64,000 nt of DNA, taken from assembly GCA_951406725.2 (NCBI GenBank), contig OX597829.1, forward strand, positions 9,300,001-9,364,000, given 5' to 3'. Under the pieces are notes generated by a model. That model saw only the letters and a program-made list of their open reading frames with translations. It had not been told where the DNA came from and ran no database searches. The position numbers and the translations under genes are program-made. The stretch is from Octopus vulgaris. Taxonomy: Eukaryota. This document shows, piece by piece, positions 10,197-60,150 of the stretch; the stretch's first letter is position 1; every line of letters begins with the position of its first letter.

Positions 10197-10581
10197 CTTC
10201 AAAAGTCTTATTGAAAAAAAAAGAAACAAAAAAATGGAGGATTTTATCCAAAGAATGAGATGTAAAGCTTATTTCTTTGACACCAAACAATAAATTAACA
10301 GAAACACATTATGGCTTTAAATCTTCTAAAAAAAAAAACACCACCTATTTCGGAATTAGAAGATTTTGAAAAAGACATTTTGAAGCTTATTAGAAGAATA
10401 AAATTCCGCAACGTTAACAATCAATTCCAGTGAGATATGAAGTAAAAAATCAGAAACATTAAGAACTCGGAAAAGATCTTCGTAAACTCTGACAAAACAA
10501 AAAACTATACGCGGTTGACAAAGATGTTTAGAAAGGTGTACTTTGGAATAGCATTACAAACACCCACAAAAAAAAGATAAC

Positions 10582-11613
10582 ATGAATTTATATAGAGTGA
10601 CGAACTTGGAAGCAAGAAGAATTGGTAACAATCTTAAAGTTAGTGATAGGATAGAATACCTCTCCCCACACCAACCCTTTATTACCCTGAAGGACTACAA
10701 AGCAAATTTCAATAGAAACCCTAAATGTAGACTAATTAACCCAGCTAAACCTGAAATAGACGTTATTAGCAAAAGTATTTTAGTTTCTATTTTAAGCAGG
10801 TTAAATAGTGAATTAAATTTGCAGATTTGGGGAAATAGCAAGCCAGTGATTGATAGGTTCAAAGGAATTAGCCATAAACACAACTGCAAATTTACTCAGT
10901 TCGATATTGTCGATTTTTACCCGTCAATATCCAGGCCTTTACTTCTTAAAAAATCAGACTTCGCAAAGCAGTATGTCAACATCGATAACTCGGATTTAGA
11001 TGTTATCTTGCATGCAAGAAATCTCTCTTTTTTTTACGATGATTCCACCTGGGCTAGGATTCTCTATCCAATGTACCGATGGGGGAATTTTATAAGGGCG
11101 GTGTTGTGTATGTTTATAGAAGCTTATATTTTGCATAATTTGCATCCAGAATTCCCTTTTATAGATGCAGGATTATTATGCAGGGATGACGGTCTTATAG
11201 TCACCCATCATTTAAACGGCCATGTGTTAGATAAACTTAGGACGAATCTTATTACTTACTTCCAAAGAATTGGCTAACAGATAATGATAGAAAGAAATCT
11301 TAATAAGGTAGATTTTTTAGATTTTAATTTAGATTTGCAATTAGATAAATTTAAACCTTACCGTAAGCCCAATGATAAGAGTGTTTTTTTATATATCAAC
11401 AAAGAATCAAATCATCCGCACGTAATTCTTAAGAACCTAGTTAGTAATATAGGAAGGCGCATAACATCCATATCTTCAGACGAGACAGCGTTTCAAAATG
11501 TTGCGCCGTATTATTGTAATGCATTAAGTAGATTCTCGGAGAAGAGCCAGTATAGTGAAACTGCTTCTAGCAATAATAGACCAATTAAAACCAGAACTAG
11601 GAAAGTTTTGTGA
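10582..11613 (+). pseudogene. Penelope-like reverse transcriptase pseudogene
   Basis: ORFs 10582-11277 and 11284-11613 are in the same frame, split by a stop; RT motifs as above. Confidence 0.9.
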
Positions 11614-24139: not shown

Positions 24140-24509
24140 ACATCATTATGTTTTCGTTGAGAAGTGTAGAGAAGAGTTCCAGATAAGGGTAGGTAATAAG
24201 TGATTTCTTCCGGTGTATATATATATATATAAACCAGCTTAGAGAAGAAGAAGAAACGAAACGAAACGAGACGAATCGAATCGAATCGACGCGAGGGCGC
24301 TCAGTCATACAATAGTGTAATAAATAAAATATATGCATACATACAAACATATATGTACGTACCTACATCTACATGTATATATACATGCATATATAAATAT
24401 ATATACGTGTGTACAGGACACCACAAATAGACGAAAACGTAAAAACAGCATGGAACGGACCATTTTTTAACAACGAAAAAACAGAGTACAGGACACCTAC
24501 ACAAGGTAA

Positions 24510-24606
24510 AATCCCCTTCATCAGCTGTCCCTAGTTCAACTCCAGCGTGTTTCGAAGGTGAGGACAGAACACGTCTCGTCGAACTAGTCCTTCCTGCGAA
24601 AGAATT
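24510..24606 (-). ncRNA. Candidate non-circularly permuted hammerhead ribozyme, family 1 copy A
   Basis: AAUUCUUU cgcag GAAGG a CUAGUUCGAC gaga CGUGU U CUGUCC uca CCUUC GAA ACACG cugga GUUGAACUAG GGACAG CUGAUGA AGGGGAUU. Confidence 0.7.
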
Positions 24607-25281
24607 AAATAAAATTCCTTTGCAGAGGGGTAAAAACAAGGAAAAAATGTGACAGAAACAGGACGTAAAAACAATACAATTAAAAACAAATACAAAATAA
24701 ACATACAATTACAAAAAATACAGTACAAGAAGGAATAGAAACAGGACAGGAAAACAAATAATGAGGGCCTATAAGCCTAGACCAGGAAAAAATTTTCACG
24801 AGCGCAGGAAGAAAAATGTTTACTTGAAGAAGGCCGCCAGCGAAAGGAAGTTCGTCCACCCGGCTGTGAGAGAGATGAGGAGGAGTGAGAGAGAGAGCGA
24901 GATAGAGAGGAACGACGCCAAAGAGGGTGAAAGAAAGAGAGAAGAAGGAGTTATAGAATTTCGCGTCATAATTATATATAAAAAAACAGCTTAGAGAAGA
25001 AGAAGAAACGAAACGAAACGAGACGAATCGAATCGAATCGACGCGAGGGCGCTCAGTCATACAATAGTGTGATAATAAAATATATGCATACATAAAAACA
25101 TATATGTACGTACCTACATCTACATGTAATATACATGCATATATAAATATATATATACGTGTGTACAGGACACCACAAATAGACGTAGAACTCAACGAGA
25201 AACGAAAAAGTAAAAACAGCATGGAACGGACCATTTTTTTTAACAACGAAAAACAGAGTGCAAGACAACTACACAAGGAAA

Positions 25282-25370
25282 AATCCTCTTCATCAGCTGT
25301 CCCTAGTTCAACTCCAGCGTGTTTCGAAGGTGAGGACAGAACACGTCTCGTCGAACTACCCCTTCCTGCG

Positions 25371-25373
<3 letters not shown>
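25282..25373 (-). ncRNA. Candidate non-circularly permuted hammerhead, family 1 copy B (5' closing strand truncated)
   Basis: Same core, stems I, II and III as 24510-24606. Confidence 0.65.
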
Positions 25374-25999: not shown

Positions 26000-26066
26000 A
26001 GTTTGTGTACATATAAATTCGAACGGAAGCGCAACGAAGAAGCAAGTGGAGAATTCACACAACGCT

Positions 26067-26151
26067 GCTGATTCCTCGTCAGTTATCGCCCCAGGGTCCT
26101 TACAATTTCATGCCTTCATCGATAATATTGTTCACATTTGGTGGCGTCAGC
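26067..26151 (-). ncRNA. Candidate non-circularly permuted hammerhead, family 3
   Basis: GCUG ACGCC a cca aauguga ACAAU A UUAUCG augaa GGCAU GAA AUUGU aaggaccc ugg gg CGAUAA CUGACGA ggaau CAGC. Confidence 0.6.
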
Positions 26152-26280
26152 GATGAGAAGCTACTGGGTATAGCGAACCTATATATATATATATATTAAT
26201 AATAATAATATGACAACAAAAGAATGAATAAGACCTCGATATTACGTAAATAAAGGAATTTATCTATAAAAATAATATTC

Positions 26281-38745: not shown

Positions 38746-39680
38746 AAGGTTTTCTTCGATTTTTATAATATGAATTTTAAACTGTAATTGTAATTTCAAA
38801 TTACCGGTTATTTAAAAAACCGTTAGTTGAAAGGACCAATCAAACAAATCCACTTTCAAATGTGTATCTTTCAAAGTAATTGTGTATTCATGCATATAAC
38901 TATGCATTCCAAAATGCTGCACCTTATTACAATAGCTCATTAAGGAAAAGTGGATTCTCTGAGAAGATCCAGTATAACCAACTTAATGCTAGCAGTAATG
39001 CTACACGTAGAACTAGGACCAGAAAAGTTTTGTGGTTCAACCCAGCTTTCAATTTGGCCGTGAAAGCAAATATTGGTAGGGAATTCTTGAAATAAATCTC
39101 TAGGCATTTTCAACCGGGACATAAATTTTATTGAATATTTATTAGAAGAACGCTTAAGATCAGCTATTCTTGCTGGAGAAACTTTGCCTCTTTCGTTAAC
39201 CAACACAACAGTAGGATAATTGCTAATAACTATAGTGCCGATCCTCTTAAAAATTGTAATTTCAAAGATGGGTCTTCCTGTCCGTTGGAAGGGAAATTTC
39301 TGGAGAAAGGAATCGCATATAGAGCCAAGGTGCAGATAGAAGGCTCACGCGAATATAGAACTTATACAGGGGCTTCTGAAAATTCTTTTAAAACCCGATT
39401 TTATTCGCATAAAAATTCCTTTACATACCTCGAAAATAGGACGAAGACCAGCCTGGCGAAATATGTCTGGAATTAAAAGAAAAAGAAGCCCGACCTTTCA
39501 ACGTGTCATGAAGTATTTCGGATAGAGCGGCACCATTAGGCACGTGCGCATAAGAGAAATTTCAAGTGCGATTTATGTTTGCTGGAAAAATATTTTATTT
39601 TATTCCAATTCTTTAAATCAAAGAAGCGAACTCTTGAATTCATACAGACACGCAGCTAAATTTAAAATGTCGACTAGCAA
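38746..39680 (+). mobile_element. Penelope-like element 3' part (post-RT region, Cys motif, GIY-YIG endonuclease), same family as 9219-11790
   Basis: AFQNAAPYY, RKVLWFNPAF, KISYSC, CNFKDGSSCPLEG, GIAYRAKV...YTGASENSFKTRFYSH, TSLAKYVWN; preceded by a repeat similar to 9219-9385. Confidence 0.92.
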
Positions 39681-40239: not shown

Positions 40240-40403
40240 TCACACACGTATATATATATATATATATATATATAAAGGAATGTAAGTGTACGTACGCCGT
40301 CATATGTATATAAAAAAGGAATACAAAAATGGGACAAGAACGCAAACCATACAGACAGACGATACAAAAGAGGAACAAGAAAAATCACGGACGGGCCATT
40401 CGA

Positions 40404-40498
40404 AGTTTTCTCTCCTCAGTCGAGTTCCAGATTATCTTTGCAATTTCGGCTGGTTATACTCGAGATTGCTCCAATCTAGTCAGCTCCAAGGCAAAACT
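40404..40498 (-). ncRNA. Candidate non-circularly permuted hammerhead, family 2
   Basis: AGUUUU gccuugga GCUG a CUAGAUU gga GCAAU C UCGAGU auaac CAGC c GAA AUUGC aaagau AAUCUGG a ACUCGA CUGAGGA gag AAAACU. Confidence 0.68.
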
Positions 40499-41030
40499 AA
40501 GCCAAGACCATTAGATTCCTTGGAAGAAATCAGTGAACGTATTTGAAAACAAGGACAGAAAAAAAACGGAGACACGGTACACAAATACAAATGCAAATAA
40601 CAGGACATAACAACAGGTGTCTTTCGACTAAGAACGAATTGAATTAAGTTGGCGTGTATGAAAATGAAGCCTTATGGCAGGGACATAAGAGTTGACAGGT
40701 ATGGGGAGGAATATAGATGTTGCAGAGATGGTAGTCGAACCAAGAAAGAAAGGTCAGGCTTGGCTGAACACTGGTCACGTGGGGAGAGAGAAGAGAGATA
40801 AAATCATTAATGATTTTACCAGGGGTTCAGCGCGGAAATGAAATTTTACGAATATTTTAATAATTATATAAATAATTATAACGAGATATTGGTTGTAAGC
40901 GTCTCCACGAGCTGGAAAAATAGACGCCAAAAGCCGGTATTACCACCTTAAAAACTCCGAAAATAAATATTTCTACGAGTGTGTATGTATATTTGCTGTA
41001 CGATGATACTGTTCGTAAATACTATGAAAG

Positions 41031-42874: not shown

Positions 42875-43514
42875 TAAGGGCTCCTAAATAAAGATGCCGA
42901 GTGCTGGGAACACAAAAAGCACTCGGCATCTTTATTTAGGAGCCCTTAATTGTATAACCACATGAATAATATTTTTCTATATGAATAATATTTTCGTCTT
43001 ATGACTAATTCGTCTTTTGTGCTGGGCACCTGGTAGTAAATAATATTACTACCCTTCTTGTTTATATTCGCATACTACATGATGAATTTATTCGTAAAAT
43101 TCTTCCCGGCATGCCCGTGTAAATTTTGCGTCTGCGCAGAGATTTGAAAAGTTAAGATCTGCTAGTAGTCGGGTTTAACATATAGCCCCACATCGCTGCA
43201 GACCTCGATTAAATTCAGGCGACTCGCTGATGAAGCCAGCCTTAGCAAACATATTCTGTGTTTTGCTAGAAAGAAGCAGAAACCGCGGTACGAGTTGTTA
43301 AAATTATCGGTAAACGTTTTTGATTTTCACTCTCGATAAATTCATCCCCTTTTTGTGTTCCCAGCACTCGGCATCTTTATTTAGGAGCCCTTAATTGTAT
43401 AACCACATGAATAATATTTTTCTATATGAATAATATTTTCGTCTTATGACTAATTCGTCTTTTGTGCTGGGCACCTGGTAGTAAATAATATTACTACCCT
43501 TCTTGTTTATATTC

Positions 43515-44289: not shown

Positions 44290-44827
44290 GACAGTTTAAA
44301 CAGTGCCTAGCGACCCGTAACCTCCACTTAGCTATGTACTTTCGATATGTTGACGACATTAAGCTTGTCGTGAAATGTAATAATAATACAGACACAGAGA
44401 TAGACTCTCCACTAAATGAAGAACAGGTGATGACAGCTATACAACACATAGCTGACTCTATTCATAGCAGTATAAAAGTTACCGTGGACTACCCCAGTAA
44501 TAGATTACCTGTCCTAGATATTGAGCTGTGGATGGAAAATACTATGATTAACGGAACTGTTAAACCCTGTATACTCCACTCACACTATTGTAAACCTATG
44601 GCTAATCCACTGGTAATCCGTAATGATTCAGCAATGTCGAGTACTACCAAGCTCAACATCCTGGTGGCAGACTTAGTTAGAGTAATGAGGAATGTATCTC
44701 CACTATGCCAACCACAAGAACGACAACAACACATCCAGCACTTCATATTCCGAATGCAACGACCAAGATACACACACTATTACAGAATCAGAGTGTACAA
44801 AGGAGCGAAAACAAGATTCGAACGCAT
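44290..44827 (+). mobile_element. Penelope-like RT C-terminal/thumb fragment (different family from 10.6 kb)
   Basis: YFRYVDD, IKVTVDYPS, RLPVLDIELW, HYCKPMAN, SAMS...KLNIL. Confidence 0.85.
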
Positions 44828-45278
44828 TCTAAGTTACGGTTCAGTTCAGTCCATTATCAATGAAAATTTGGATATGAAGCGCGTGTCTGCCACGTTTTTG
44901 CCAAAACTGCTTTCAGCTGACCAAGAAGACACTCAGGTTTCAGTTGTACAAGATCTCCTTGACTGTGTCGAGAAAGATGAAAACATTTTGAAAAACTTTG
45001 CGTAGGCCTCTGAGCAAGTATAGCCTCGCTTTTGGCAAAATTTGATGCATATTCTCTCTCTCAACTTTCTCTGTCATTATCGATGAGATGATCACACGCT
45101 ACATACGTTTCTTCCAAGCATTAGTGTAGACAGTAGAAATGCACTACAACGTTAAAATTTGTGCACATGCACAACAGTGTTCAAGGTCAATTTGTGCCAA
45201 GCAGCTTCACTTTACGCTTTTTAGCTTCGTTACTTTGGCAACAGTCCGTATATTTATTGATCAGACCCACGCGTGTAT
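44828..45278. mobile_element. Rearranged mariner relic: internal part on + (44828-~44997), 5' end with TIR on - (~44997-45278)
   Basis: + strand LSYGSVQSIINENLDMKRVSATFLPKLL; - strand MTEKVE..ICIKFCQKRG and ggtctgatcaataaatatacggactg TIR-like end. Confidence 0.8.
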
Positions 45279-51591: not shown

Positions 51592-51843
51592 ATTGTAAAG
51601 TATATTTGCCACCTAAATGTGGCTGACCCATAAGGGACGATGCTACTGTAGTTTGTAGCCCCAGGAAGACATCTCCTACAGCTGGCTAACGACACACTCT
51701 TTGTTGCCCGATCAGTATTTGCGAAGGGAAATCATTGTTCCCATCCCTAGCCTTACCTGATACACACGGACCCGGGTTATAAACTAAAGTAGCATCGTCC
51801 CTTAAGGGTCAGCCACATTTAGGTGGCAAATATACTTCACAAT
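51592..51843. mobile_element. Inverted-repeat element (~70-bp arms), MITE or inverted pseudo-LTR
   Basis: aagtatatttgccacctaaatgtggctgacccataagggacgatgctac... / ...gtagcatcgtcccttaagggtcagccacatttaggtggcaaatatactt. Confidence 0.75.
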
Positions 51844-51887
51844 GTCGTGCTGCTGCTGTTTACATCTCGCTCAGCAATTTATTATTG

Positions 51888-52146: not shown

Positions 52147-52266
<120 letters not shown>

Positions 52267-52564
52267 TCTCTGGCCCGCTCGATTCACCTTTTGTTAAATG
52301 CATCAGGATATTCTCCTAGCGTTGACTATTTCTGTCTACAATGTGGTCCTAAGGCCTTATTTTGTTCGTCTATCTATATCAGTTCGTTTCTACGCTCACA
52401 GTCCCGTTTCTTTCCTTTGCCATCCTTCACACATCCACTACTTGTCTCGTTTTCGATTACATTTATTCCACGTTTGTATGTTAACTGTCTGTATCGCATT
52501 CTTGTCTGTTTGTACATGTCTTGTCTTATTTCTTGCTTTTTGGCTCTCTAATTCCTAGCGGCAT

Positions 52565-52662
52565 TTGCCGCCGGCGGCGCCACCAGTAGAGTATTTAGTA
52601 TTATCGGTTAGGCACGAAATTACGGTTGACCCACTAGACGATAACTGATGAGAATTTGGTAA
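52565..52662 (+). ncRNA. Candidate non-circularly permuted hammerhead, family 3-related
   Basis: UUGCCG ccggcg GCGCC a ccaguag aguauu UAGU A UUAUCG guua GGCAC GAA AUUA cgguugac ccacuag a CGAUAA CUGAUGA gaauu UGGUAA. Confidence 0.6.
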
Positions 52663-54639
52663 CCCTCTCTGTCTGTTTTCCGTTTGTTTGTGCATTTATT
52701 ATATATTTTGAACTCATTACATATATAGTTATATATATATATATATATATATATATAGCAATAAGAAAATAGAGAGGATCAATAGGTTCATCAACTTTCA
52801 GACATTATATTACGTTAACTTATTTATTTATTTACTAAACTGATAATTACAAAAATATACATACATACATACATACATACATACATACATACATACATAC
52901 ATACATACATACATACATACATACGTACATATAACATATTATGCTTTACATATAAGATATAAAATATAGTAATATATTAGGATACCTGTAATTATTATAA
53001 AATAACAAACATGAATATAAATTGGGAAAAGATATATATATGTATATATGTGTGTATGTATGTATGTATGTATGTATGTATGTATGTATGTATGTATGTA
53101 TGTATGTATGTATGTATGTATGTATGTATGTATGTATGTATGTATGTATGTATGTATGTATAATATTACAATGTCGTAAAATAAACTACGAATCTTGTTA
53201 GATACAGCTATACAGGGTTTCCTGCTCGAAATCCTAATTTATTTCGCCATTTTTCAAGCTGAGAAGACCGTTTGTGTATACGTTCTTTTTCTTGGCTTGT
53301 TTTCGTGAGCGAATTTTATGCAGAGTAAAGTCCTTGTCAGCTGCAGGCTTGTTCATATTGAATACGTTTCTTTTCCTGATATATATTTTGCAGTCATATT
53401 TAACCCTCAATAAACGAAAACTACAACATTAACATATAAAAGTTTGATAGATCTAAACGTTAGCGTTGGACGTTAACAGCCAGGTGTGTAATCGACATGT
53501 TGGACGTTACTCACCCATGTCCTCAGATATAATCTCAAGGGACTTGTGTATGGCATCCTACAACCGTGTGATATCCAGCAGCTATGGCCATCCCATCTTA
53601 AATATTTGACCACGTACGTTTTTTTTAGAATATCTAGTTGGAAGATACTTGTTTTGATCGAAGATTAAAAATTATTTTATTTGGATACATTTTAATCGAA
53701 TCCATCACACTAAATTACCCAAAAGCAAAATGAGAAAACCTGGAAAATGATAATGCAACCAAATCAGAAGCAGAAGTGACAAGCATAAATCAAACAAGAA
53801 AAATATAATAACTGTAGAAACATATGAATATGGAACTGACACATTCAAAATGAACAGAAAACTCAACACCGCTAAAAATTTGAATTACTATAGACTAATG
53901 ACCGAAAAACAAATGGACGGGAATAACAGGACGGTAAAGACTGAAAGAACGCCTAAAACAAGTGACATTCGCTAATTCCCATATAATCTGTTGGTTTGAG
54001 AAGCAACAATGATTCCACGAACAAACGCTTCAAACGATTTTCTCAAGAACCATGAAAAATAACGTAGAAATTAATGCAATACTAACTGCACGAGAAATGG
54101 AAGAATTTGGAGAAAGGTTTGTGCAGCAAAGGAATCTCCACGGACGCAAAAGTTCAAAACAGCAGAGATGGCCTTTCCATTGTGGAGATGTTACAAACAA
54201 TAAACAACTAGAAGGTATCAAGGCGTGATAAGATTCTACACAATTTAATAAAATGCTGAAAGAGCGGTAGAAAAAAACCCCCATCTAATTGGTTCACTGA
54301 GGTGAAGAGACCCTTCGAAATCAATCAGACAACATAAAGTGAACCTTTAAAACCTCGAGTGCCTTAGAAAGCCTTATCAGTGCAATATTACTGAGATCAA
54401 AATACAACAGAAGGGGGAAGGGATTAGTTTTCCATTAAATGGATGATGGTGTTCTCATCACTTGTTGATTCTAGAAACATTAGCGGCATCGTTAGGATAG
54501 AACCACAAGCAAGCAGATACATTTAACTTGTCACGAAGAGATAGAGAAAAAGTCCGTAGACACAGAAAAAAAGTGGGGAATTATAAACTAATTCAAACTC
54601 TATTAGAACTGAAATGTGTCAAGAGGAGTATTTCTCTTC

Positions 54640-59399: not shown

Positions 59400-60150
59400 G
59401 GGGGGGAGAATTCACAAAAAAACAAAACAAAAGACAAAGATAGGTGATGTAAACAACAAACAGATGTATTAGTATAACGCTCGGGAAGTGAAAAAGTCTT
59501 TAATGTTTCGAGCCTACGCTCTTCCACAGAAAGGAACAGGGAGAGAAAATAAAGAATATGTAGTCGAGAGGAAGAGGAAGAGAATGTGAGAGGAAGAGAG
59601 GAGAAGGGAGGGGGGTTAAATGAAGAGGGGAGGAGAGTTGAGCCCATGTGGTGCAAAGGAGCGAAGAGATAAGATTAATCCCTGTTCACTGCGAAGATGG
59701 GAGTCCAGATGGCCCCTGTTCAAGGACAATCCGAACACAGACAGATGTTGCAAAGAGTGACCGGTAGAGCGGAAATGGTGCGAGACCGAGGTGTTATTGC
59801 CGAGTCGGATGTCTCGGAGGTGTTCGGCGAACCGGTCAACCAAGCGGCGTCCCGTTTGCCCGATGTATAGAGAAGGGCAGAGAGAGCAGGAGATGCATTA
59901 GATGACATTGGTAGAAGTGAAGGTGAAGGAGTCGGTGATATGATAGGGTCGATGATGGGTGCCGGTGAGGAGGGTGGTGTTGGAGCGATAATGACAAGTG
60001 CGGCACCATGGGTGGGAGCAGAGGAACGAGCCAGGCTGGGAGGTTGTGTTAGGGAAGAAGCTGTGGACCAAGAGGTCTTGTAGGTTGTGGACCCGTTTGA
60101 AGGAGGGTAGGGGTCGGCTAGGGAAGATGTGAGAAGTGGAGGGGTCGGAC
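59400..60150 (-). mobile_element. Penelope-like element 3' end: Cys/His motif + GIY-YIG endonuclease + pseudo-LTR with degenerate hammerhead (59498-59533)
   Basis: Minus-strand CRTCHY, NVI*CISCSLCPSLYIGQTGRRLVDRFAEH, VSHHF, PHGLN; then cuuu-CUGUGGA-a-gagc(guag)gcuc-GAAA-ca-UU-aaag. Confidence 0.9.

What the first reader, a model, noticed from the sequence alone, without database searches (positions are those of the whole stretch)
52565..52662. Plus-strand permuted hammerhead related to the 26.1-kb copy, with a compensated stem III
Shares stem I (UUAUCG/CGAUAA) and the GCC/GGC part of stem II with 26067-26151, but has a different stem III (UAGU/AUUA, site GUA after 52600), a CUGAUGA core and a different closing helix (UUGCCG/UGGUAA). 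Divergence elsewhere with retained pairing supports structural conservation within family 3.
Basis: partly seen in the sequence, partly recalled or inferred. Interest (0 to 1): 0.7.

Follow-up and report, generated by a model that had tools for sequence, protein, structure and literature searches.

The report
Split-stem permuted hammerhead of Naiad retroelements
This is one worn copy of a very abundant repeat carrying a hammerhead ribozyme core with its parts in scrambled (non-circular) order and one arm of stem II supplied by a separate upstream strand; the same predicted fold sits at the 3' end of Naiad retrotransposons, so it is likely the self-cleaving RNA they were reported to lack.

Summary
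The core is real. 52596-52651 holds all conserved hammerhead nucleotides in the order cleavage site (GUA, 52600), GAAA, CUGAUGA: the non-circular 'SGC' order, in print only from environmental RNA contigs. The window has five such cores (0.03 expected); the genome has 15,531 GAAA-before-CUGAUGA matches against 1,433 control. Instead, stem II's 5' strand comes from upstream, and the chain leaving A9 enters a predicted four-way junction. In 26 of 27 unselected genomic cores the base after CUGAUGA cannot pair with C11.1, so this breaks the block rule of the published permutations. The same architecture lies 0.8-1.4 kb downstream of 14 of 30 Naiad reverse-transcriptase remnants here. Read by eye, it also ends published cnidarian and octopus Naiad consensus sequences described as lacking canonical hammerheads; nematode Naiads show type CSG. 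In a sister family, insertion 5' ends pile up just 3' of the predicted cut. Not shown: cleavage, expression, and sequence homology of this family to a Naiad ORF. This copy is decayed. New variant; interest 0.8.

The parts
52266..52720 (+). 5'-truncated copy of the repeat (about 450 nt of a roughly 786-nt pyrimidine-rich unit), between (TA)n tracts
   Evidence: Homology to other genomic copies starts about 52290-52305 and ends about 52700-52727; flanks
52547..52554 (+). Helix A, 5' strand; predicted to pair with 52652-52659 and close the structure (5 contiguous pairs plus 2 in this copy)
   Evidence: family helix 71.8% paired
52555..52574 (+).
   Evidence: pair probability 0.99 for 52558-52562/52567-52571; A-U/G-C exchanges in 11 and 10 family copies at two pairs
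52577..52581 (+). Upstream-supplied 5' strand of stem II ('B'); G52577 is predicted to pair with C11.1 (52615); one C-A mismatch in this copy
52583..52587 (+). Helix D, 5' strand (stem I-II bridging helix); one mismatch in this copy
   Evidence: 82.1% paired in family, 9 two-sided changes at one pair
52596..52606 (+). Block S: stem III strand, GUA cleavage triplet (predicted cut 3' of 52600), stem I strand
52611..52622 (+). Block G: stem II 3' strand, GAAA (52616-52619), stem III strand
52633..52637 (+). Helix D, 3' strand
52639..52651 (+). Block C: stem I strand and CUGAUGA
52652..52659 (+). Helix A, 3' strand, starting directly after A9
26056..26175 (-). Related copy with the same architecture (upstream A pairs with U11.1)
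24230..25372 (-). Sister family: two ribozymes 772 nt apart bounding one unit, same architecture, no unit-wide sequence similarity to the finding's family
40395..40510 (-). Third family, SGC core with decayed upstream helices (boundaries approximate)

Best explanation
This is a decayed copy of a high-copy repeat whose hammerhead core is in the non-circular order site-GAAA-CUGAUGA, is predicted to take the 5' strand of stem II from a separate upstream segment through a four-way junction at A9, would cut its own RNA 3' of 52600, and likely belongs to a non-autonomous Naiad-type Penelope-like retroelement. SHOWN in sequence: all core nucleotides; stems I and III; seven complementary helices in the order A, hairpin, B, D, III, I; the same order in several genomic families with different sequences; that architecture downstream of Naiad RT remnants. 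INFERRED: the fold (helix B stacks under the G12-A9 pair as stem II; helix A and the hairpin branch off between A9 and position 10.1; helix D ties the outer ends of stems I and II, like the interaction helix of published SGC ribozymes); hammerhead chemistry (5'-OH and cyclic phosphate; established for the class); that cleavage sets the 5' end of, or releases, the element RNA from tandem pseudo-LTR transcripts; that Naiad RT mobilises this ORF-less family. Odds: architecture conserved and real 0.93; intact members self-cleave (alone or protein-assisted) 0.8; family moved by Naiad machinery 0.7; this particular copy still cleaves 0.35.
For: Window enrichment. Genome count 15,531 vs 1,433 reversed control. 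Of 75 distinct pattern hits in 70 fetched loci of contig C1, 27 have a matching S block (shuffle control 1.1); the base after CUGAUGA is A 15, C 6, U 5, G 1, local stem II is 0 bp in 26 of 27, and an upstream partner of 5 bp or more is present in 18 of 27 (control 3.7). On 49 family copies the full model is 80.7% paired (0 of 500 shuffles as high), 63 cells with two-sided change (0/500), covariation score 1/500, slid controls 25-47%; a local stem II is 43% paired. 7 of 11 hand-picked representatives of other families exceed all of about 200 shuffles for helices A+hairpin+B+D. 14 of 30 Naiad RT loci carry the motif, whole or part, on the same strand 774-1443 nt downstream. By eye, the same seven helices end published Naiad consensus sequences of octopus and Acropora and four further entries. 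Sister-family insertion 5' ends: 17 of 68 at risk stop at -2..+23 of the predicted cut vs 4 of 51 in the next 26 nt and 6 of 74 in the previous 24 nt (Fisher p 0.016 and 0.011); 22 of 69 in a partly overlapping set. Two ribozymes bound units of 714-787 nt at five places, and inverted pairs occur, as in Penelope-like insertions.
Against: No cleavage assay. In this copy helices B and D each carry a mismatch, the peripheral helices do not beat shuffles (44 of 498), and the nested minimum-energy fold is a different rod with z +0.5 (pseudoknots cannot be modelled). Only 27 of 65 family copies spanning the core keep it intact. Within the family the number of pairs with a two-sided change is not above shuffles (422/500), helices A and B are only 72% paired, the model was derived from these sequences and the shuffle ignores relatedness. 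4 of 11 representatives did not beat shuffles. The family's unit has no BLAST similarity to the 38 Naiad RT loci held and no RT motif was found beside it. The 5'-end excess is smeared over +4..+19 rather than at the cut, the bin was chosen, and RT stalling could contribute. Many insertions, this one included, run through the cut site. In another Penelope-like element, cleavage needed protein and was dispensable for insertion in vitro (PMC11167929, passages).
Confidence: 0.72

Rival explanations
1. The fold is conserved but is not (or no longer) catalytic: it is a protein-binding or RT-positioning structure near the 3' end of the element.
For: Many insertions span the predicted cut; in the Anolis element hammerhead mutants did not affect insertion in vitro and no RNA-seq reads ended at the site (PMC11167929 passages); a break between A9 and 10.1 has, to my knowledge, not been tested.
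Against: All catalytic nucleotides and the UH site are kept across families and phyla while every helix changes sequence; insertion 5' ends are enriched just 3' of the cut.
Confidence: 0.12
2. The core forms between two RNA molecules or two tandem repeats (one gives blocks S and G, the other the B strand and block C), not within one chain.
For: The monomer needs two closed rings of helices; elements occur as partial tandems and inverted pairs; dimeric cleavage by Penelope-associated hammerheads is reported (title seen in a reference list only).
Against: Published SGC ribozymes with the equivalent bridging helix cleave as single transcripts of about 80 nt and have the same stem III-to-bridge connection (PMC10085705); linker lengths here are tightly conserved (B start 22-27 nt before the cut).
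Confidence: 0.09
3. It is an ordinary published-type SGC hammerhead with a one-pair stem II (G52652-C52615), closed, and the upstream helices are incidental or inhibitory.
Confidence: 0.06
4. Chance assembly of short motifs in a repeat-rich genome.
For: About 9% of the genome-wide pattern hits are expected background.
Confidence: 0.01

Closest known systems
Type-SGC non-circularly permuted hammerhead (HRIMA-1 and SGC variant; Eckert et al. 2023, PMC10085705)
   Same: Block order site-GAAA-CUGAUGA; short (3-5 nt) linker from stem I to stem II; a helix bridging the outer ends of stems I and II; all core nucleotides.
   Different: There stem II's 5' strand follows CUGAnGA directly, stated as an assumption defining block C; here it lies upstream of the site and a helix-plus-hairpin junction is inserted at A9. 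The paper states that none of its motifs, apart from one GCS candidate, was found in genomes of known organisms; here it is in an animal genome in at least about 14,000 excess matches.
Naiad Penelope-like elements (Craig et al. 2021, PMC8557442)
   Same: (TA)n targets, 5' truncation, fixed 3' end, partial tandems and inverted copies; motif about 1 kb after the RT; the paper's 'HHR_core' and 'HHR_half_core' notes cover entries in which I read this fold.
   Different: The paper reports that Naiads lack canonical hammerheads and gives no structure; the finding's own family has no detected ORF and no sequence similarity to the Naiad loci held.
Non-LTR retrozymes and canonical Penelope-like pLTR hammerheads (preprint 10.64898/2026.07.22.740005)
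   Same: Non-coding unit bounded by two hammerheads, proposed to be non-autonomous derivatives of Penelope-like elements; unit lengths up to 972 nt reported.
   Different: Those carry type I (circularly permuted) hammerheads in tandem arrays; here the topology is non-circular and copies are dispersed 5'-truncated insertions with a fixed 3' end.
Type-CSG hammerhead (Eckert et al. 2023)
   Same: Same cyclic order of blocks; the split form equals CSG reopened between A9 and 10.1. By eye, nematode Naiad consensus sequences carry intact CSG.
   Different: Only two CSG sequences, from metagenomes, were reported; block C is unbroken there.

Membership tests
Hammerhead ribozyme class | Core C3 U4 G5 A6 N7 G8 A9, G12 A13 A14 A15.1, U16.1 H17 | tested here: met
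   52645-52651, 52616-52619, 52599-52600
Hammerhead ribozyme class | Stems I and III flank the core | tested here: met
   6 and 4 pairs; 91.8% and 93.8% paired in 49 copies
Hammerhead ribozyme class | Stem II closes the core next to G12 | tested here: met
   Met only with the upstream strand: 4 of 5 pairs here, 72% in family, 5 bp or more in 18 of 27 unselected cores
Hammerhead ribozyme class | Site-specific self-cleavage 3' of H17 | not testable with these tools
   Only indirect: insertion 5'-end excess in a sister family
Canonical hammerhead types I, II, III (Rfam models) | Cyclic block order C-G-S without pseudoknot in the core | tested here: not met
   Order is S-G-C; no hammerhead model among 4 Rfam matches at E up to 10 for 52450-52720
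Type SGC (Eckert 2023) | Block order S, G, C | tested here: met
Type SGC (Eckert 2023) | Short linker from stem I to stem II and a helix bridging stems I and II | tested here: met
   4-nt linker 52607-52610; helix D 82% paired
Type SGC (Eckert 2023) | Stem II 5' strand directly follows CUGAnGA (unbroken block C) | tested here: not met
   43% paired in family; 0 bp in 26 of 27 unselected cores
Naiad Penelope-like element | ORF with N-terminal GIY-YIG and C-terminal RT | tested here: not met
   No RT motif beside family copies; unit not similar to 38 Naiad RT loci. Met only for a different family with the same ribozyme architecture
Naiad Penelope-like element | (TA)n insertion bias, 5' truncation, partial tandem and inverted copies | tested here: met
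Non-LTR retrozyme | Type I hammerhead in each tandem unit | tested here: not met
   Ribozyme is not type I; at most two units seen in 2-3 kb loci
Non-LTR retrozyme | Circular RNA intermediate | not testable with these tools
   Only contig-level runs were available

The most novel reading that the evidence does not exclude
Naiad retrotransposons across animal phyla carry self-cleaving non-circularly permuted hammerheads, and in cnidarian, cephalopod and crustacean lineages the catalytic core is opened between A9 and 10.1 into a four-way junction: a four-block hammerhead topology outside the six published permutations, present in more than ten thousand copies in one genome, with cleaved RNA used as template for new insertions.
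Probability: 0.62. Interest if true: 0.88.

Novelty: new variant of a known kind. Interest (0 to 1): 0.8.

Why it matters
It would answer a stated puzzle (why Naiads, which dominate many invertebrate genomes, 'lack' the hammerheads of other Penelope-like elements), give non-circular hammerhead permutations their first home in a cellular eukaryotic genome and a biological context, and show that the CUGAUGA-stem II junction, treated as unbreakable in descriptors, can carry a whole junction. All standard searches (Rfam, type I/II/III descriptors) miss it, so animal ribozyme counts may be far too low: here the permuted order is about three quarters as abundant as the canonical order. It is directly testable with 110-120-nt transcripts.

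Tried and rejected
Rfam scan of the whole window gave only microsatellite-driven miRNA noise in the 150 of 440 rows shown; the local scan gave no hammerhead. Search for an ORF next to family copies: tblastn with four window PLE fragments found nothing, motif scan nothing credible, 12 extended loci of a young subfamily showed only unrelated LINE-like ORFs; a pair 3.77 kb apart on C30 showed no ORF of 130 aa or more. Pfam did not classify the window's RT fragments. Sequencing runs: no RNA holder listed. Laying four guessed-RNA contig runs on the sister family gave many repeat-like contigs but cannot show strand, ends or expression; not used as evidence. Nested folding of the copy is unremarkable (z +0.5). 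Earlier findings of the scan: none returned. In the Naiad supplement passages seen I found no such motif for bivalve, hemichordate or fish entries, none at the 3' end of Naiad_Omin, a different unclear arrangement in the squid entry, and only a 2-bp stem I in Naiad_Bfor; I saw passages around search terms, not all 54 consensus sequences. Circular-template random priming was considered and disfavoured because 3' ends cluster.

Full report
Observation. The window is G000:C16:9300001-9364000 of a 2.8-Gb, microsatellite-rich genome. At 52596-52651 the plus strand holds a complete hammerhead core: G-U-A at 52598-52600, stem I 52601-52606 with 52639-52644, GAAA at 52616-52619, stem III 52596-52599 with 52619-52622 and CUGAUGA at 52645-52651. 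The 5'-to-3' order is site, GAAA, CUGAUGA, which is not a circular permutation of types I-III. A scan for all six orders found five such cores (52645+, 40419-, 26082-, 25296-, 24524-) and one canonical type I (43227+); 30 block-wise dinucleotide shuffles gave 0.03 SGC cores per window. The 26.1-kb copy is a true relative (E 1e-14 to the family profile). Rfam has no matching hammerhead model here.

What is in print. Eckert et al. 2023 (PMC10085705; I read parts 1 and 3-6 of 8 of the text, searched its supplement, saw no figures) named this order type SGC, validated cleavage, and state that no motif except one GCS candidate was found in genomes of known organisms. They define block C by assuming that CUGAnGA and its adjacent paired nucleotides follow one another directly.

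The stem II problem. In this family the bases after CUGAUGA do not pair with those before GAAA: 43% of cells paired over 49 copies (49 full-length, non-young copies chosen from 98 found). Instead an upstream segment supplies three things in a row: a strand that pairs with the bases after A9 (helix A), a hairpin, and a strand that pairs with the five bases before GAAA including C11.1 (helix B, the functional stem II). Next comes helix D, pairing with the bases just 5' of stem I. On the alignment this seven-helix model is 80.7% paired (0 of 500 shuffles as high), has 63 cells with two-sided change (0/500) and a covariation score reached by 1/500; slid controls give 25-47%. The count of pairs with a two-sided change is not above shuffles (422/500), and the model was derived from these sequences. 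I therefore replace it.

Other families decide the matter. The pattern CGAAA-N18-28-CTGATGA has 15,531 matches in the genome against 1,433 for the reversed control; the canonical order has 20,984 against 3,054. I fetched 70 loci in list order from the start of contig C1; they held 75 distinct hits, of which 27 have an upstream S block with stem I of 4 bp or more and stem III of 3 bp or more (shuffle control 1.1). Many of the other 48 are visibly 5'-truncated or decayed and some are chance. In the 27 the base after CUGAUGA is A 15, C 6, U 5, G 1 times, so 26 cannot pair with C11.1, while 18 have an upstream partner of 5 bp or more starting 22-27 nt before the cut (control 3.7). In hand-picked representatives the hairpin ends directly at the B strand and helix A starts 0-2 nt after A9; 7 of 11 beat all of about 200 shuffles, 4 did not, nor did the window copy (44/498). 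The inferred fold is a core opened between A9 and 10.1 into a four-way junction. Topologically it is the CSG/SGC cycle reopened inside block C, with helix D equal to the published stem I-II interaction helix.

The element. The finding lies in a roughly 450-nt 5'-truncated insertion between (TA)n tracts. Longer copies show a pyrimidine-rich unit bounded by two ribozymes 714-787 nt apart at four loci (one more at 546 nt), five loci have inverted pairs, and the sister family in the window has a 772-nt unit. 3' ends cluster about 100-116 nt after the cut in this family and at about 265-280 or 366 nt in the sister family. These are the structural marks of Penelope-like insertions described by Craig et al. 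2021 (PMC8557442; passages, metadata sheet and parts of the supplement seen). That paper says Naiads lack canonical hammerheads but that some have a core that fits no descriptor, eight with GAAA 35-50 nt away on either side.

The Naiad link. Reading the published consensus sequences by eye (not computed), the 3' ends of Naiad_Obim and Naiad_Ovul, of three Acropora entries and of four further entries whose headers were outside the passages (supplement parts 9, 12, 12, 19; by file order hydrozoan, cubozoan or rotifer, and crustacean) show the same A, hairpin, B, D, III, I arrangement with almost every pair complementary and A, C or U after CUGANGA. Eight entries in the nematode part of the file show type CSG with an intact stem II, and one in the spider part shows SGC with a downstream stem II. 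Entry names are assigned from neighbouring headers and file order. No such motif appeared in the passages for bivalves, hemichordates or fish. In G000 itself, a Naiad RT motif search gave 8 loci, one with the ribozyme on the same strand about 1.1 kb after the ORF fragment, and 14 of the 30 best of 137 RT matches carry it, whole or in part, 774-1443 nt downstream on the same strand within 1.5-kb flanks. The finding's own family shares architecture but no detectable sequence with those loci, so calling it a non-autonomous Naiad-type element is inference.

Mechanism. By hammerhead chemistry (established knowledge) the RNA would be cut 3' of A52600. In a pseudo-LTR tandem transcript this would set the 5' end or release a unit. 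Indirect support comes from the sister family, whose cut site is not AT-rich: anchored 104 nt downstream of the cut, 87 distinct copies stop at 0.14, 0.47 and 0.34% per nt approaching the core, 0.96% per nt at -2..+23 (17 of 68), then 0.30, 0.16, 0.26 and 0% per nt upstream (Fisher p 0.016 and 0.011). A partly overlapping set gave 22 of 69 in that bin, on which the bin was chosen. The excess is smeared 3' of the cut, so end trimming or RT stalling must be invoked, and many copies run through the site, so uncut or re-ligated RNA is also copied. In the Anolis Poseidon element cleavage was protein-assisted and not needed for insertion in vitro (PMC11167929, passages). This copy keeps the core but has mismatches in B and D and a shifted helix A; only 27 of 65 family copies keep the core intact, as expected for decaying insertions.

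Novelty. Eight literature searches found no report of non-circular or split-stem hammerheads in Naiads or any animal genome. The 2026 retrozyme preprint (10.64898/2026.07.22.740005; parts 1-3 of 5 read, supplement closed) used type I models only. Perreault 2011 (PMC3088659, passages) lists core insertions and weak stems II but no helix at A9 in the passages seen; PMC13725137, PMC10162972 and 10.64898/2026.09.16.752053 (passages) add nothing on this. The library lacks most subscription journals, figures were not visible, and bioRxiv supplements are closed, so prior description cannot be excluded. Verdict: works like a hammerhead; fails one defining feature of type SGC and the order of types I-III; new variant of a known kind, interest 0.8.

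Noticed in passing
window 43218-43290 (+): Canonical type I hammerhead-like core with 9-bp stem I and 8-bp stem III, long stem II region.
   Followed up: no
window 10552-11613 (+), 44292-45005 (+), 39135-39476 (+), 59616-59897 (-): Broken Penelope-like RT and GIY-YIG fragments of other clades (assignment from recalled motifs; Pfam only weakly hits GIY-YIG).
   Followed up: partly
G000 genome-wide: About 18,000 excess canonical-order cores, dominated in the listed rows by one family with an extra A after CUGAUGA, often in close inverted pairs.
   Followed up: no
L068, L115-L121, L145-L153: A near-identical repeat (about 40 of 85 hits) carries only the S-G-C part of this family, without the B strand or hairpin, fused to unrelated upstream sequence.
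   Followed up: partly
Craig 2021 supplement, nematode Naiad entries: Type CSG hammerheads with intact stem II and a bridging helix, a permutation reported from only two metagenomic sequences; read by eye.
   Followed up: partly
Craig 2021 supplement, part 17 (spider entries): An SGC-order core with downstream stem II and a roughly 110-nt S-to-G linker; read by eye.
   Followed up: no
L097 (G000:C12:78364000-78373999): A 5.4-kb tandem duplication containing the Naiad-type ribozyme and an exon-like stretch resembling a signal peptide.
   Followed up: no
window 51620-51845: Short inverted-repeat element just upstream of the insertion's microsatellite flank, seen by eye.
   Followed up: no
L376 / L143: A sister-family ribozyme copy is inserted in opposite orientation inside a Naiad RT remnant.
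   Followed up: no
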